Assembly (NCBI RefSeq): GCF_009914755.1 | Contig: NC_060929.1 | Length of the DNA: 64,000 bases | Direction: 5' to 3' (one strand) | DNA from: the human T2T-CHM13v2.0 reference genome, Homo sapiens | In this document: piece after piece, positions 17,530 to 31,087 of the stretch | Position numbering within the stretch: position 1 is the stretch's first letter | Layout: each line of letters begins with the position of its first letter | Notes under the pieces: model-generated | What the model was told of the DNA's origin: nothing | Databases searched by the model: none | The model's input: only the letters and a program-made list of their open reading frames with translations | Position numbers and translations under genes: made by a program

Positions 17530-17729
17530 AACATCACAGCAACACAAACCGTTATTCACCATTTGAGAAGCACGTTCTAACATGTTGCTAGAGACTAAAT
17601 GGTGGACTGCAGAAAAATCACGAGACCACGTGACCAGGGCTACCCATTCAGAAGCTGGGTATGGCCAGATCATTAAATGCCAAGGTCAGGCAGCCACAAC
17701 ATAAATGCCCAGCACAAGGGAAATGCTAC
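17530..17729 (+). mobile_element. ERVL (HERV16/ERV3-16A3-like) pol remnant, left part
   Basis: ccatttgagaagcacgttc...gaagctgggtat...gggaaatgctac resembles ERVL pol and continues colinearly at 30469. Confidence 0.65.
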
Positions 17730-18328
17730 TGATACAGCTCCATTGTCTGGAGAAACACCCAGGGTCCTTGGTGACAAGAACACATGTGGAGTGGATGAAA
17801 CAGCAGAAAGTTTAATAGGCAAGAAAGAAGAAAACAGCACTCCCATACAGAGGGAGGAGGGCTCTGAACAAAAAACTCCATGTATTGCAGAAAGCAGTCA
17901 GTTATATTGGGAGGCTGGAGGAAGTAGTGTCTGATTTACATAGGGCCCAGGGGATTGGTTTGACCAGGTGTGTCATTCACATAGCCTGTGAAAGAACTGG
18001 CCCTCCCACCCCGGCCTTTTAATATGCAAATGTGGCTACCTGACAGGTCACCATGATGTCCTGCACATGTGGCCTATACTTGGCTGGTCACCATGATGTC
18101 CTGCATACGTGGCAACATAGAAAAAGTGGAGGGAACCACCATATTGTGTGTACCTGGCTTTTAGCCACCAGCATTTGCATATCAATGCTTGCAGATCTGG
18201 TTTTTCAGGCTGCTTTCTGTTAGAAAAGAAATGTTTTGGGGACTGTTTTTATTACACAAAAAGCCTTACCAAGGACTCTTTTACTCTCTCTAGCTGCCTA
18301 AAATAATTTCTTAATAATTCCTGTAATA
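17730..18328 (-). mobile_element. 3' LTR of the provirus (MER61-like, ~600 bp)
   Basis: Minus starts tattacaggaattattaagaaattattttaggcag and ends ...gctgtatca; purine-rich PPT gagggagaaaa at 18329-18339. Confidence 0.8.
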
Positions 18329-19210
18329 TTTTCTCCCTCAGGAGATGTCAGCCTAACTGCTGTTAGGGGGTTTGGAACGGCAACTCTTTCTGGCTACTTC
18401 CTGCTGAAAAGGGGCATCAAGTGGAAAACAACAGCTAGGGTTCCTCCTGGGGTTGATCTAAGGGTCCTCAAAAGAATGGCTTTTCCATGCATGGTTCTGT
18501 TTGCAGCACCACTTGGAGTCTGATTGCTTCTAGGCAGGAGGAAACAATTTGAGTATGCAAGGTCCAAATATTAATACAAGACATGTAAGCAAGAGGCGGC
18601 TTAATAAAGGAGCTAACCAATTCCATGAAGAAGACTGGAATTCATTAAAGAGGGATTGTAGCCACCCAGGGCTGAAGCCCGCATTGTCTCTTAGCCTGTC
18701 AATGATTTCGATGTGATCTTTAAGTACCTGTAGGTTTTCCTCTACTTGACTAGAGGTGTTAATCCAGAAGCAGCATGTTTCATTTAAAAGTGCACAGGTA
18801 CCTCCTACTTCAGCTGTAAGAACATCTAAGACTTGTCTATTTGGTACTACTGCTGAAGCTAAAGCATCTACAGATTACTGTTGTGACTCTATGGCTCCTA
18901 CAGTTGCCTTCCAACCTTGTTGCATCATAATAGAAATATTAAGTACCAATCTTTTAAGGAGAGGAATGCCAGCAAACCAGAATAGACTTCTGGCTATAGA
19001 ATTTCCCACACATCATTTTTCTAAGATGGGATTGTGATGTGCATGCCCTCCCCAGTCTTCCCTTTCAGCTAGATCTTCATATGAGGGCACAGAAATGATA
19101 GATCTTTGTCCAGTGTATTCAAGATAGTGCAGTTTCTAGAAAAGAACCTAAGATAGGGATGTCCCCAGATGATGCTGCCATCTCAGTAGAATTTAAAAAT
19201 AATAGGTCAT

Positions 19211-22200
19211 TTAGAGGGAACTTCATAGCAATAAATGCCCACAGGAGAAAGCAGCAAAGATCTAAAAATGACACCCTAACATCACAATTAAAAAAACTAG
19301 AGAAGCAAGAGCAAACAAATTCAAAAGCTAGCAGAAGATAAAAACTAACTAAGACCAGAGCAGAAGTGAAGGAGCTAGAGACACGGAACATCTTTTTGAA
19401 AAGATTAACAAAATAGAAACATGGCTAGCCAGATTAATAAAGAAGAAAAGAGAAAAGAATCAAATAGACACAATAAAAATAATAAAGGGGATATCACCAC
19501 TGATCCCACAGAAATACAAACTACCATCAGAGAATACTATAAAAACCTCTGTGCAAATAAACTAGAAAATCTAGAAGAAATGGATAAATTCCTGGACACA
19601 TACACACTCCCAAGACCAACCCAGGAAGAAGTCAAATCCCTGAATAGGCCAATAACAAGTTCTGAAATTGAGGCCGTAATTAATAGCCTACCAACCAAAA
19701 AAAAAGCCCGTTACCAAACAAATTCACAGCTGAAATCCACCAGAGGTACAAAGAGGAGCTGGTATCATTCCTTCTGAAACTATATCAAACAACAGAAAAA
19801 GAGTGATTCCTCCCTACCTCATTTTATGAGGCCAGCATCATCCTGATACCAAAACCTGGCAGAGACACAACAAAAAAAGAAAATCTCAGGCCAAGATCCC
19901 TGATGAACATTGATGTGAAAATCCTCAATAAAATACTGGCAAACCAAATCCAGCAGCCCATCAAAAAGTGTATCCATCATGATCAAGTCAGCTACATCCC
20001 TGGTATGCAAGGCTGGTTTAACAGATGCAAATAAATAAATGTAATCCATCACATAAACAGAACCAATGACAAAAAACACATGATTATTTCAATAGATGCA
20101 GAAAAGGCCTTCGATAAAATTCAACACCCCTTCATGCTAAAAATTCTCAATATACTAGGTATTGATGGAACATAACTCAAAATAATAAGAGCTACTTATG
20201 ACAAACCTACACCCAACATCAAACTGAATGGGCAAAAGCTGGAAGCATTCCCTTTGAAAACTGGCACCAGACAAGGGTGCCTTCTCTCACCACTCCTATT
20301 CAGCATAGTATTAGAAGTTCTGGCCAGGGCAATCAGGCAAGAGAAAGAATAAAGGCATTCAGATAGGAAGAGAGGAAGTCAAATTGTCTCTGTTTGCAGA
20401 TGACATGATTTTATTTTTAGAAAACCCCGTCTTCTCAGCCCAAAATCTCCTTAAGCTGATAAGCAACTTCAGCAAAGTCTCAGGATATAAAGTCAATGTG
20501 TAAAAATCACAAGCTTTCCTATACACCAATAATAAACAGAGAGCCAGATCGAGTGAACTCCCATTCACGACTGCTACAAAGAGAATAAAATACCTAGGAA
20601 TACAACTTACAAGGGATGTGAAGGACCTCTTCAATAAGAACTACAAACCACTGCTCAAGGAAATAAGAGAGGACATAAACAAATGGAAAAATATTCCATG
20701 CTCATGGATAGGAAGAATCAATATCATGAAAATGGCCATACTGCCCAAAGGAATTTATAGATTCAATGCTATCCCCATCAAGCTACCAGTGACTTTCTTC
20801 ACAGAACTGGAAAAAAATACTTTAAATTTCATATGGAACCAAAAAAAAGAGACCGTATAGCCAAGACAATCCTAAGAAAAAAGAACAAAGCTGGAGGCAT
20901 CATGCTACTTTACTTCAAACTATACTACAAGTCTACAGTAACCAAAGCAGCATGGTACTGGTACCAAAACAGATATATAGACCAATGGAACAGAACAGAG
21001 GCCACAGAAATGATGCTACACATTTACAACCATCTGATCTTTGACAAACCTGACAAAAACAAGCAATGGGGAAAGGATTCCCTATTTAATAAATAGTGTT
21101 GGGAAAACTGGCTAGCCATATGCAGGAAACTGAAGCTGGATCCCTTCCTTACACCTTATACAAAAATTAATTCAAGATAGATTAAAGACTTAAATGTCAG
21201 ACCTAAAACCATAAAAACCCTAGAAGCAAACCTAGGCAATACCATTCAGGACATAGGCATGGGCAAGGACTTCATGACTAAAACACCAAAAGCAATGGCA
21301 ACACAAGCCAAAATTGACAAATGGGATCTAATTAAACTAAAGAGCTTCTGCACAGCCAAAGAAACTACCATCAGAGTGAACAGGCAACCTACGGAATGGG
21401 AGAACATATTTGCAAACTATCCATCTGACAAAGGGCTAATATCCAGAATCTACAAAGAACTTAAACAAACTTACAAGAAAAAAAAAAATCAACTCCATCA
21501 AAAAGTGGGCAAAGGCTATGAACAGACACTTCTCAATAGAAGACATTTATGTAGCCAACAAACATATGAAAAAAAGTTCATCATTACTGGTCATTAGAGA
21601 AATGCAAATCAAAACCACAATGAGATACCATCTCACGCCAGTTAGAATGACGATCAATAGAAAGTCGGGAAACAACAGATGCTGGAGAGGATGTGGAGAA
21701 ATAGGAACACTTTTACACTGTTGGTGGGAGTGTCAATTAGTTCAACCATTGTGGAAGACAGTGTGGCAATTCCTCAAGGATTTAGAACCAGAAATACCAT
21801 TTGACCCAGCAATGCCAAACACCCTAAGGATTATAAAGACACATGCACACGTGTTTATTGCAGCACTGTTCACAATAGCAAAGACTTGGAATCAACCCAA
21901 ATGACCATCAATGATAAACTGGATAAAGAAAATATGGGACATATACACCATAGAATACTACGCAGCCATAAAAAATGATGAGCTCATGTCCTTTGCAGGG
22001 ACATAGATGAAGCTGGAAACCATCATTCTTAGCAAACTAACACAGGAACAGAAAACCAAACACCACATGTTCCCACTCATAAGTGGGAGTTGAACAATAA
22101 GAACACATGGACACAAGGAGGGGAACATCACACACCAGGGCCTGTTGGGGGGTGGGGGTCTAGGGGAGGGATAGCATTAGGAGAAATACCTAATGTAGAT

Positions 22201-22307
22201 GAGGGGTTGCTGGGTGCAGCAAACCACCATAGCACGTGTATACCCAGGTAGCAAACCTGCACATTCTGCACATGTATCCCAGAACTTAAAGTGTAATAAA
22301 AAAAAAT
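19211..22307 (+). mobile_element. 5'-truncated L1PA7/8-like element inserted into env
   Basis: Disrupted ORF2 frames 19159-21904; 3'UTR attaggagaaatacctaatgtagatg...cccagaacttaaag; short TSD AAAATAAT. Confidence 0.9.
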
Positions 22308-30046: not shown

Positions 30047-30348
30047 TTTTTTTTTTTTTTGAGACAGAGACTTGCTCTGTCACCCAGGCTGGAGTGCAGT
30101 GGCATGATCTTGGCTCACTGCAACCTCCAATCCCAGGTTCAAGCAATTCTTGTGCATCAGCCTCCCAAGTAGCTGGGACTACAAGCATGCACCACTACAC
30201 CTAGCTAATTTCTTGTGTGTGTATTTTTAGTAGAGATGGGGTTTCACCATGTTGCCCAGGCTGGTCTTGAACTCTTGAGCTCAGGCAGTCTGCCCACCTT
30301 GGCCTCCCAAAGTGCTAGGATTACAGGCATGAGCCACTGTGCCTGGTC
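30047..30348 (-). mobile_element. AluS in the proviral leader
   Basis: Alu dimer with T-tract; flanking ttgatttgatttt repeat. Confidence 0.95.
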
Positions 30349-30450
30349 AATTTGATTTGATTTTAAAATGGAGGCCAAGAGCTTGGAATGAAAGGACAGA
30401 TTTTGAGTTTACTCCTCTGCTCACCGCTCTGATGAATGTTGTACCTTGGC

Positions 30451-30468
30451 TTCCTGGCCAACACACCA
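30451..30468 (-). promoter_or_regulatory. Primer-binding site complementary to tRNA-Gly
   Basis: Plus strand ttcctggccaacacacca vs tRNA-Gly(TCC) 3' end ttcccggccaacgcacca: 16/18, both mismatches at CpG. Donor-like CG|GTGAGC follows at ~30424. Confidence 0.85.
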
Positions 30469-31087
30469 CTACATTTAAGATTAGGCCTGAGGAGGTCTGG
30501 CAGACACAACTAAGTTACACGGAAGGGTGACCCAGATGCTAAGTTGCCAAACTCTTGAACTCTTGCCGCTTCCTTAGTTCTTACCTATGACCTTGTGAGG
30601 GATTTCCTAAGATCAGCTGGTGGAGAGAGAAAAAAATAAAGCTCTCCCAGTAGAAAGAGCTTTGAGCAGCACATGTAGTCATTAACTGTTGGGGGGAGGA
30701 AAAAGTGGCCAGAGGCAGAGATATTCAAGAACTCCTGGGAAGTGGTAAACAGCTCTGTTGGCTGGTCAGGGCCTGAAAAAAGAAGGGGAGAAATATTGGA
30801 AGATAGGATCAAGGAAGTCTGGAGAAGGAGCACATGTATATGTCTTTGTGATTCAGGTCAGTGCCTACCAGATCATTCATCAAAGAGGGCTTACACAGGA
30901 AGACTCATCCTGTGCTGGTAGTCAGCCTCTGTTCTCAGGCACTCCATTGTTTTCACAGTAAGTTGTGACTAGAGTAATCATGGTGGCAGGGATGGAAGCT
31001 ATGCCAAAGCCTGATAGCACAGGCCCTTCTTATCAAGAATACTTTAGTTACTACCACTGCTAAATATCAGTATCAGAAACCAATACT

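What the first reader, a model, noticed from the sequence alone, without database searches (positions are those of the whole stretch)
17726..30472. One-LTR provirus integrated through its PBS: TSD-[PBS...gag-pol-env...LTR]-TSD
Seen: read on minus, the element is gtag|TGGTGTGTTGGCCAGGAA(PBS)...gag-pol-env-PPT-LTR...GTATCA|gtag. No trace of a 5' LTR lies next to the PBS. The same 4-mer CTAC flanks both ends, and the host ERVL pol sequence rejoins across the site (gggaaatgctac / atttaagattaggcc). Known: gamma-like ERVs make ~4-bp TSDs and integrase joins CA-3'OH ends. After first-strand transfer, minus-strand DNA is copied up to the PBS, giving a tRNA-like ...CCA-3' end. Inference: this is a fossil of an incomplete reverse-transcription product, made without second-strand transfer, whose PBS-complement CCA end was used as a surrogate att site. 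LTR-LTR recombination (solo LTR) or L1 retrocopying (polyA, long TSD) would not give this structure. A precise later deletion of the 5' LTR via TG microhomology is the alternative.
Basis: partly seen in the sequence, partly recalled or inferred. Interest (0 to 1): 0.8.

Follow-up and report, generated by a model that had tools for sequence, protein, structure and literature searches.

The report
One-LTR provirus that starts at its PBS
An ancient retrovirus copy on human chromosome 5 has a genuine 4-base insertion footprint on both sides yet lacks its left repeat and begins exactly at the first base of its tRNA primer site, so it was probably inserted as an unfinished DNA copy.

Summary
On the minus strand, 17730-30468 is a gamma-like (class I) ERV: PBS, gag, pro, pol, partial env, PPT and one 599-bp 3' LTR. 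It is interrupted by two Alus and an L1 piece.

CTAC flanks both ends. Aligned to 14 paralogous copies of the host ERVL-like pol relic, both CTAC copies fall on the same four columns. In three paralogs they fall on the same codon. The 4-bp target-site duplication is therefore real and no host DNA is lost.

The left end is base 1 of an 18-nt PBS complementary to the tRNA-Gly 3' end. Relatives carry an LTR end plus 3 nt just upstream; this copy has neither.

In 146 other PBS sites in the genome, an LTR end always lay upstream.

The family LTR starts TA, so a later exact deletion would have only 1 nt of microhomology.

My best reading (about 0.6) is that integrase joined the U5 end to the CCA-3' end at the PBS of an unfinished or circular viral DNA. 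A later precise deletion (about 0.25) cannot be excluded without other primate genomes.

HTLV-1 proviruses that lost the 5' LTR before integration are a known precedent. I rate this a new variant of a known kind.

The parts
17300..17729 (+). Left part of the host, an old ERVL-like pol relic. It ends ...GGGAAATGCTAC.
   Evidence: It aligns to pol relics L056, L057, L071 and L079. The paralogs carry RVT_1, RT_RNaseH_2, RNase_H and rve. Pfam sees nothing in this flank itself.
17726..17729 (.). Target-site duplication, copy next to the 3' LTR (CTAC on +, GTAG on -).
17730..18328 (-). The single (3') LTR, 599 bp. It starts TATTACAGG and ends GCTGTATCA. It holds a 40-bp tandem duplication at 18037-18113 and overlaps the RefSeq enhancer 17850-18145.
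   Evidence: at least 40 genome copies scored at 71-81% identity, of 1476 candidates. One search gives the family ends; one search gives repeat D5.
18329..18339 (-). Polypurine tract GAGGGAGAAAA, directly before the LTR.
   Evidence: In two relatives a purine run also precedes the LTR (L009, L010).
18548..18934 (-). env, transmembrane part only.
   Evidence: TLV_coat, E 7e-21, profile positions 429-553 of 560.
19390..22319 (+). Later insertion inside env: a LINE-type reverse-transcriptase piece, antisense to the ERV.
   Evidence: RVT_1, E 2.5e-26, at about 19846-20608 on the + strand. The extent is taken from the repeat mask given with the task.
23017..23340 (+). Alu inserted between pol and env.
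   Evidence: repeat families D1-D3 and I2, I4.
23866..27193 (-). pro-pol, broken by stops and frameshifts: RVP 26927-27193, RVT_1 26179-26559, RT_RNaseH_2 25723-25971, RNase_H 24999-25418, Integrase_H2C2 24675-24827, rve 24331-24606, MLVIN_C 23866-24024.
   Evidence: three frames read with X at stops.
27566..27901 (-). gag capsid (Gag_p30), below Pfam's cut-off.
   Evidence: E 2e-5, 24.6 bits against a cut-off of 27.4.
30033..30374 (-). Alu inserted in the leader.
30375..30450 (-). Start of the leader, conserved in relatives (..CCAAGGTACAACATTCAT..).
30451..30468 (-). Primer-binding site TGGTGTGTTGGCCAGGAA. Its first base is the first base of the element.
   Evidence: It is the complement of the tRNA-Gly(TCC) 3' end plus CCA, with 2 CpG-type transitions, or of tRNA-Gly(GCC) with 3 changes. 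In relatives it lies 3 nt after the LTR end.
30469..30472 (.). Target-site duplication, copy next to the PBS (CTAC on +).
30473..31083 (+). Right part of the host ERVL-like pol relic (ATTTAAGATTAGGCC...).

Best explanation
What it is. A gamma-like retrovirus that used tRNA-Gly as its primer entered the germline of an early anthropoid ancestor. It inserted into an older ERVL-like pol relic.

Proposed mechanism. The DNA that was integrated had no 5' LTR. The viral integrase joined two 3'-OH ends to the target across its usual 4-bp stagger:
- the normal U5 end (...TATCA-3');
- on the other side, the minus-strand end ...CACCA-3', which is the complement of the first bases (TGG) of the PBS.

That end exists naturally. 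Minus-strand DNA stops there before second strand transfer.

Three substrates give the same product:
(a) a linear DNA made without second strand transfer;
(b) the second-transfer intermediate, in which the 18-bp PBS duplex carries a recessed CCA-3'OH and a long 5' flap that host repair later removes;
(c) a 1-LTR circle opened at the pseudo-palindrome CA-TTT-TG at the U5/PBS junction.

Shown: the anatomy, the real TSD and the exact PBS start. Inferred: the timing (before integration), the role of integrase and the substrate.
For: 1. The TSD is real. Both CTAC copies map to the same four columns of 14 host paralogs and to the same codon in 3 of the 4 paralogs tried. No host base is lost.

2. Four bp is the family's own TSD length. 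Of 19 LTR loci, five independent loci show perfect 4-bp repeats (L002, L004, L008, L017 and L014, whose duplicate is L015), and one more matches 3 of 4 (L018).

3. The right end stops exactly at the LTR's terminal CA. That is the mark of integrase.

4. The left end is base 1 of the PBS. Relatives read LTR end ..ATATCA + 3 nt (TTT, TGT or TTC) + TGG. Here host DNA abuts TGG directly.

5. The PBS is the exact complement of the tRNA-Gly 3' end including the added CCA. Base 1 therefore matches the last template base for minus-strand DNA.

6. There is little microhomology for a deletion. The LTR starts TA.. and the PBS starts TG.., so only T is shared.

7. Breaks close to the PBS are not common. 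At the 23 other PBS-Gly sites, 99 PBS-Pro ERV sites and 24 further leader loci (146 in all), an LTR end lay upstream every time.

8. The PBS start (TGGTG) resembles the inverted U5 end (TGATA) at 3 of 5 bases, and the two differences are purine for purine. It also carries the canonical TG/CA, which the family's own U3 start (TATTA) lacks.

9. Precedent. In HTLV-1, some proviruses without a 5' LTR have the 6-bp repeat joined to internal pol or env sequence and to the 3' LTR. This is read as integrase using an internal sequence before integration (PMC6950816, passage read, citing Miyazaki 2007, which is not held).
Against: - It is a single locus. No second example turned up among the 146 other PBS sites examined, so recurrence is not shown.
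- No orthologous or empty site from another species could be examined. The host continuity rests on paralogs that are only about 60-65% identical at the DNA level.
- A later deletion with 0-1 nt of microhomology would leave the same sequence.
- The odds I give against such a coincidence are my own rough estimates, not a computed result.
- Nothing tells the three substrates apart.
- It is inferred, not tested, that this virus's integrase accepted a PBS end.
- The PBS scan only covers sites whose PBS still matches my patterns. It covered 100 of the 116 PBS-Pro hits.
Confidence: 0.6

Rival explanations
1. A normal two-LTR provirus integrated, and a later deletion removed exactly the 5' LTR plus the 3-nt spacer (about 602 bp). 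The upstream TSD copy and the whole PBS were left untouched.
For: Deletions by end joining with 0-2 nt of microhomology are common in old proviruses, and the final sequence would be identical. One shared T exists at the two junctions. The element is old and much damaged otherwise: two Alus, an L1 piece and many stops. No second case of the PBS-first structure was found.
Against: Both breakpoints would have to fall, each to within 1-2 nt, on two independent biological boundaries (TSD/LTR and spacer/PBS), and nothing in the sequence drives that. Among 146 other PBS sites, none has a break anywhere in the last roughly 60 nt of U5. My rough estimate, not computed, is well under one such coincidence per genome.
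Confidence: 0.25
2. Insertion without concerted integrase action. An incomplete viral DNA was captured at a chromosomal break with a 4-nt stagger; or one end was joined by integrase and the PBS end by host end joining; or the DNA annealed through PBS homology, as described for Tf1.
For: Integrase-independent insertion guided by PBS or PPT homology is documented for Tf1 and suggested for HIV-1 (PMC11042837, passages read).
Against: That pathway puts PBS-like host sequence downstream of the 3' LTR and usually leaves no TSD or truncated LTR ends. Here the TSD is exact and of the family's length. The U5 end stops at CA. By eye, the host next to either end shows no meaningful similarity to the PBS. 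End joining would not be expected to keep both ends to the base.
Confidence: 0.08
3. The CTAC match is chance, or the structure is an assembly or rearrangement artefact.
For: A given 4-mer match has a 1 in 256 chance.
Against: The host pol relic is colinear across the site to the codon, with CTAC once. No displaced LTR or other piece of this ERV lies elsewhere in the 64-kb window.
Confidence: 0.02

Closest known systems
HTLV-1 'type 2' defective proviruses that lost the 5' LTR before integration (Miyazaki et al. 2007, as summarised in PMC6950816; passage read)
   Same: There is no 5' LTR. The 3' LTR is intact. The virus's own short repeat flanks the internal sequence on one side and the 3' LTR on the other. 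The reading is that integrase used an internal sequence as its second end.
   Different: Those are somatic integrations of a deltaretrovirus with a 6-bp repeat, and their left ends lie inside pol or env. This one is a fixed germline copy of a gamma-like ERV with a 4-bp repeat. Its left end is exactly PBS base 1, which points to a defined reverse-transcription intermediate or to the U5/PBS junction.
Ordinary class I (gamma-like) ERV proviruses and their solo LTRs, as seen in this family's other copies
   Same: Same LTR, PBS type, leader, gene order and 4-bp TSD.
   Different: Other copies have an LTR end plus 3 nt before the PBS (29 of 29 leader loci, 23 of 23 other PBS-Gly sites). This copy has one LTR and so could never collapse to a solo LTR.
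Integrase cleavage of the palindromic LTR-LTR junction of 2-LTR circles, followed by integration (PMC4372172, seen only as a search listing and abstract start; details are recalled)
   Same: Integrase would cut an internal CA..TG junction in circular viral DNA and then integrate the opened molecule.
   Different: Here the junction would be U5/PBS in a 1-LTR circle (CA-TTT-TG, 3-nt spacer). As far as my searches went, that junction is not a described substrate.
Integrase-independent, PBS-homology-guided insertion of Tf1 (PMC11042837; passages read)
   Same: The PBS end of the cDNA takes part in an unusual insertion.
   Different: The geometry is opposite: there the PBS tail lies downstream of the 3' LTR. 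That pathway needs target homology and gives no regular TSD. Here the TSD is exact and there is no such homology.
L1-mediated processed pseudogenes of ERVs, the HERV-W type (PMC5016936 and PMC5537654; seen only as search listings)
   Same: Proviral sequence without complete LTRs.
   Different: From recall, those start in R, end in R plus poly(A), and have long L1-type TSDs. This one ends at the U5 CA, has no poly(A) and has a 4-bp TSD.

Membership tests
Class I (gamma-like) endogenous retrovirus provirus | gag-pro-pol-env order with MLV-type domains | tested here: met
   Gag_p30, RVP, RVT_1, RT_RNaseH_2, RNase_H, Integrase_H2C2, rve, MLVIN_C and TLV_coat, in that order on the minus strand. Gag_p30, RT_RNaseH_2 and Integrase_H2C2 score below Pfam's cut-off.
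Class I (gamma-like) endogenous retrovirus provirus | 18-nt PBS complementary to a tRNA 3' end, a few nt after U5 | tested here: met
   The PBS matches the complement of the tRNA-Gly(TCC) 3' end plus CCA at 16 of 18 bases, and of tRNA-Gly(GCC) at 15 of 18. In relatives it lies 3 nt after the LTR end.
Class I (gamma-like) endogenous retrovirus provirus | 4-bp target-site duplication | tested here: met
   CTAC/CTAC is confirmed on host paralogs. Family copies have 4-bp repeats.
Class I (gamma-like) endogenous retrovirus provirus | Two LTRs in direct orientation | tested here: not met
   Only one LTR is present: none in 14000-34000 and none in the whole window. Host DNA abuts the PBS.
Solo LTR (LTR-LTR recombination product) | A lone LTR between the TSD copies, with no internal sequence | tested here: not met
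   About 12.1 kb of internal sequence (ERV plus later insertions) lies between the PBS and the LTR.
L1-mediated processed pseudogene of an ERV | Starts in R, ends in R plus poly(A), with a long TSD of about 7-20 bp (features recalled) | tested here: not met
   The element ends at the U5 terminal CA with no poly(A) before the flank. The TSD is 4 bp. The start is at the PBS, not in R.
Provirus that lost its 5' LTR before integration (HTLV-1 type 2 kind) | 5' LTR absent; 3' LTR complete to its terminal CA | tested here: met
Provirus that lost its 5' LTR before integration (HTLV-1 type 2 kind) | The virus's usual short repeat flanks the internal sequence on one side and the 3' LTR on the other | tested here: met
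Provirus that lost its 5' LTR before integration (HTLV-1 type 2 kind) | Direct evidence that no full-length form ever sat at the locus | not testable with these tools
   No other primate genome is held. The 'own' genome search covers only the human T2T assembly.
   No Dfam or Repbase library is on hand. PMC4724089 (passages read) lists HUERSP3/LTR9 among the oldest class I groups, but those passages gave no PBS type.
Integrase-independent PBS-homology insertion (Tf1 type) | Target homology to the PBS next to the 3' LTR; no regular TSD | tested here: not met
   The TSD is regular. By eye, the flank after the LTR (GTAGCATTTCCC..) has no meaningful match to this copy's PBS.

The most novel reading that the evidence does not exclude
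This locus is a germline fossil of integrase capturing the reverse-transcription intermediate that exists at second strand transfer, or a 1-LTR circle opened at its U5/PBS junction. The PBS would then be a natural surrogate attachment site. If so, 'PBS-first, one-LTR, TSD-flanked' insertions form a recurrent and so far unannotated class of ERV copy. Such copies can never collapse to solo LTRs, and they record how often retroviral DNA is integrated before it is finished.
Probability: 0.3. Interest if true: 0.7.

Novelty: new variant of a known kind. Interest (0 to 1): 0.55.

Why it matters
Integration is normally thought to wait for a complete, two-LTR linear DNA. A fixed germline copy whose left end is the very last base that minus-strand synthesis can reach before second strand transfer, with a proper integrase footprint, would be natural evidence that integrase can use that end.

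It would link the 5'-LTR-less proviruses seen in HTLV-1 disease to a defined intermediate.

It would explain some of the many 'one-LTR' ERV relics that are usually put down to random deletion.

It also gives a simple, searchable signature: internal sequence starting at PBS base 1, with a TSD shared with the 3' LTR flank. That signature can be counted in genomes and in integration-site data.

On its own it is one old, dead copy with no sign of function beyond an LTR that RefSeq lists as an enhancer.

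Tried and rejected
Finding host paralogs.
- A DNA search with the left flank found only itself.
- A 70-aa protein query from the right flank found only itself.
- The right-flank DNA found one copy, L054, which is truncated just at the site and so was of no use.
- Pfam on the flanks read with X at stops gave nothing.
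- The word-indexed protein database gave nothing.
- A degenerate 20-nt motif taken from the flank finally gave 45 copies against 0 in the control.

Looking for recurrence.
- 23 other PBS-Gly sites all had an LTR end upstream.
- Of 116 PBS-Pro hits, 100 were looked at.
- 14 of those 100 had no BLAST partner among the upstream pieces. Ten of them resembled other groups by eye. L122 and L189 resemble each other.
- L123 proved to sit after a multi-copy LTR, with a second copy 9.5 kb downstream.
- L185 has no retroviral domain in 9.5 kb and is taken as the expected chance hit.
- No second PBS-first element was found. TSDs of these other sites were not examined.

Literature.
- K222, a HERV-K copy lacking its 5' LTR, has no identifiable TSD and its authors ascribe it to deletion, so it is not analogous.
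- The Tf1 integrase-independent pathway has a different geometry.
- A six-term search for a PBS-ended, TSD-flanked provirus returned 0 papers. Other searches gave no description of one.
- These searches cover open-access text only, so I do not claim it is absent from print.
- Miyazaki 2007 itself is not held.

Dating. With only one LTR, the copy cannot be dated by LTR-LTR divergence.

Full report
WHAT IS THERE

The window is T2T-CHM13 chr5:115,568,001-115,632,000. On the + strand the sequence reads ...GGGAAATGCTAC|TGATACAGC... at 17718-17738 and ...TTCCTGGCCAACACACCA|CTAC|ATTTAAGATTAGG... at 30451-30485.

Read on the minus strand, this is gtag|TGGTGTGTTGGCCAGGAA ... GCTGTATCA|gtag. The element proper is 17730-30468 (12,739 bp). 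The two CTAC copies are at 17726-17729 and 30469-30472.

Pfam on the three minus-strand frames, with X at every stop, gives this order: Gag_p30, RVP, RVT_1, RT_RNaseH_2, RNase_H, Integrase_H2C2, rve, MLVIN_C and, far downstream, the TM part of TLV_coat. A purine run (18339-18329) and a 599-bp LTR (18328-17730) follow.

The frames are full of stops and shifts. Env is interrupted by a LINE-type RT piece on the opposite strand. Two Alus sit at 23017-23340 and 30033-30374.

It is therefore a dead gamma-like (class I) ERV with PBS, gag, pro, pol, partial env, PPT and one LTR.

THE LTR FAMILY

The LTR has many relatives in the same genome. Forty were scored at 71-81% identity out of 1476 first-look candidates, and several lie in pairs a few kb apart as proviruses.

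In 19 LTR loci the family ends read TATTACAGG... and ...CCATATCA. Perfect 4-bp direct repeats flank five independent loci: L002 ATGG, L004 CTAT, L017 CTAT, L008 CCAT, and L014 (with its duplicate L015) CTAT. L018 has 3 of 4. The other loci are LTRs of proviruses or truncated copies.

Two LTR pairs of family proviruses differ by K2P 0.14 and 0.105. With a neutral rate near 2.2e-9 per site per year (a recalled figure), that puts family activity at very roughly 25-30 million years ago or more.

THE PBS AND THE MISSING LTR

A search with the 94 nt after the left end found 39 other places; 29 of them were fetched. In all 29 the stretch upstream of the PBS is an LTR end:
- 25 have BLAST matches to this LTR;
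- the other 4 (L029, L035, L039, L041) show the same U5-end motif by eye.

The junction in close relatives is ...CCATATCA + TTT (or TGT, TTC) + TGGTGCATTGGC... Only the window copy has host DNA abutting TGG, with neither LTR nor spacer.

No second LTR copy exists in 14000-34000 or anywhere in the window.

The 18 nt are a true PBS:
- A gene that ARAGORN calls tRNA-Gly(GCC) ends ...TTCCCGGCCAATGCA.
- Two genes it calls tRNA-Gly(TCC) end ...GGCCAACGCA.
- With the added CCA, the complement of the first is the PBS of many relatives (for example L094).
- The complement of the second is the window's PBS, apart from two CpG-type transitions.

Base 1 of the element thus pairs with the last base of the tRNA. 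It is also the last base that minus-strand DNA can copy before second strand transfer (established reverse-transcription scheme; inference).

THE TSD IS REAL

Direct searches for host paralogs failed at first. A degenerate 20-nt motif from the left flank then found 45 copies in the genome against 0 for the reversed control.

Two of these copies, L057 and L071, carry RVT_1, RT_RNaseH_2, RNase_H and rve. The host is therefore a retroviral pol relic. The label ERVL rests on my recall of its motifs. The insertion site lies between the connection domain and RNase H.

In a MAFFT alignment of 14 paralogs with the two flanks added as fragments, the left flank ends and the right flank begins on the same four columns (paralogs mostly GTAT; CTAC in L056). 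The host sequence continues without a gap.

At the protein level, the last residue of the left flank (Y, TAC) and the first of the right flank (Y, TAC) align to the same codon in L071 and L057 (1684-1686) and in L079 (1677-1679). In L084 the left alignment ended early.

So the pre-insertion sequence had CTAC once. The insertion duplicated it and no host base was lost. The paralogs are only about 60-65% identical in DNA, so this is strong but indirect. A real empty site was not available.

HOW COMMON IS SUCH AN END?

- A pattern for the PBS-Gly, allowing CpG decay, hits 24 places in the genome (0 control). The 23 others all have an LTR end plus 3-4 nt upstream.
- A like pattern for the PBS-Pro seen in related loci hits 116 places (1 control). 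I looked at the first 100.
- Of those 100, 86 had a similar upstream partner by BLAST and 10 more by eye. L122 and L189 resemble each other. L123 sits after a multi-copy LTR whose partner lies 9.5 kb downstream. L185 has no retroviral domain in 9.5 kb and is taken as the chance hit.
- Counting the leader loci that are not in these lists, 146 other PBS sites were examined. All have U5 upstream, and none is cut anywhere in the last roughly 60 nt of U5.
- No second PBS-first element was found.

This shows two things. The structure is rare, under about 1% of PBS-bearing copies. Breaks near the PBS are not a common form of decay.

EXPLANATION

A 4-bp repeat of the family's own length, a right end that stops at the terminal CA, and an undamaged target are the marks of a concerted integrase reaction. 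The second end must then have been the minus-strand ...CCA-3' at the PBS.

Three substrates would give exactly this product:
(b) the transfer intermediate itself, an 18-bp PBS duplex with a recessed CCA-3'OH and the plus-strand strong-stop DNA as a 5' flap, which repair removes in place of the usual short overhang;
(c) a 1-LTR circle cut at the U5/PBS junction CA-TTT-TG, which resembles the LTR-LTR junction.

The PBS start TGGTG is close to the inverted U5 end TGATA. It also has the canonical TG, which the family's own U3 start (TATTA) lacks. It is thus at least as att-like as the true left end. I cannot tell (a), (b) and (c) apart.

THE MAIN RIVAL

The main rival is a later deletion of exactly LTR plus spacer. 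It would need two independent breakpoints placed to the base, with only one shared T. I judge this much less likely than integrase use of the PBS end, but these are rough odds of my own. Sequence at this locus alone cannot exclude it.

Integrase-independent capture fits poorly. That route usually leaves no regular TSD and nibbled ends, and the Tf1 type needs PBS-like target sequence next to the 3' LTR (PMC11042837, passages read). Neither is seen here.

WHAT IS KNOWN

For HTLV-1, a review states that in some leukaemias without the 5' LTR the 6-bp repeat is joined to an internal pol or env sequence and to the 3' LTR. It reads this as integrase sometimes recognising an internal sequence and integrating a defective provirus (PMC6950816, passage read, citing Miyazaki 2007; the primary paper is not held).

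That is the same kind of event. The present case differs in three ways: it is a fixed germline ERV, it is of a gamma-like virus, and it ends exactly at PBS base 1.

My searches found no description of a PBS-ended, TSD-flanked provirus. They cover open-access text only, and older integration papers in subscription journals were not searchable.

K222 (PMC4425911, passages read) lacks a TSD and is not analogous.

VERDICT

- Observation: confirmed.
- Interpretation: partly supported.
- Novelty: a new variant of a known kind.
- Interest: moderate, and it would rise if orthologues or a genome-wide count bear the reading out.

Noticed in passing
window 17850-18145 (within the LTR 17730-18328): The RefSeq 'enhancer' lies wholly inside U3 of the single LTR. 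It includes a 40-bp tandem duplication at 18037-18113 (family D5).
   Followed up: no
window 13707-14099 (minus strand): Another LTR, of the family that flanks the PBS-Pro provirus at locus L123, matches here at 77% identity over 396 nt. It overlaps the RefSeq enhancers 13557-14756 and 14062-14371. A 69-bp tandem repeat at 14078-14215 lies at or just past its edge (family D4).
   Followed up: no
loci L002-L020: This LTR family starts with TA rather than the canonical TG in nearly all copies, while it ends with the canonical CA.
   Followed up: partly
loci L002, L004, L008, L014/L015, L017 and window 17726-17729: The family's 4-bp target duplications are strikingly alike: CTAT three times independently, CTAC, CCAT, and ATGG (the reverse complement of CCAT). 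This hints at a target-site preference.
   Followed up: no
loci L022-L050 and L085-L103: Copies of one ERV superfamily carry different PBS types: Gly(GCC)-type TGGTGCATTGG, Gly(TCC)-type TGGTGCGTTGG or TGTGTTGG, and a Pro-type. They share the same leader (..CCAAGGTACAACATTCAT..). This suggests primer switching within the lineage.
   Followed up: partly
loci L085, L087, L090, L093: A second, unrelated PBS-Gly ERV family has a near copy of the first 10-12 nt of its PBS inside U5, about 20-25 nt upstream of the real PBS.
   Followed up: no
loci L014 (C14:13997608) and L015 (C15:19002088); L102 and L103 on C24: These are pairs of loci with identical flanks, so they are duplicated genomic segments and not independent insertions. 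I counted each pair once.
   Followed up: no
window 31084-31768: Two Alus interrupt the host ERVL-like pol relic just after the stretch that aligns to paralogs. In an X-read translation, integrase-like host sequence seems to go on beyond them.
   Followed up: no
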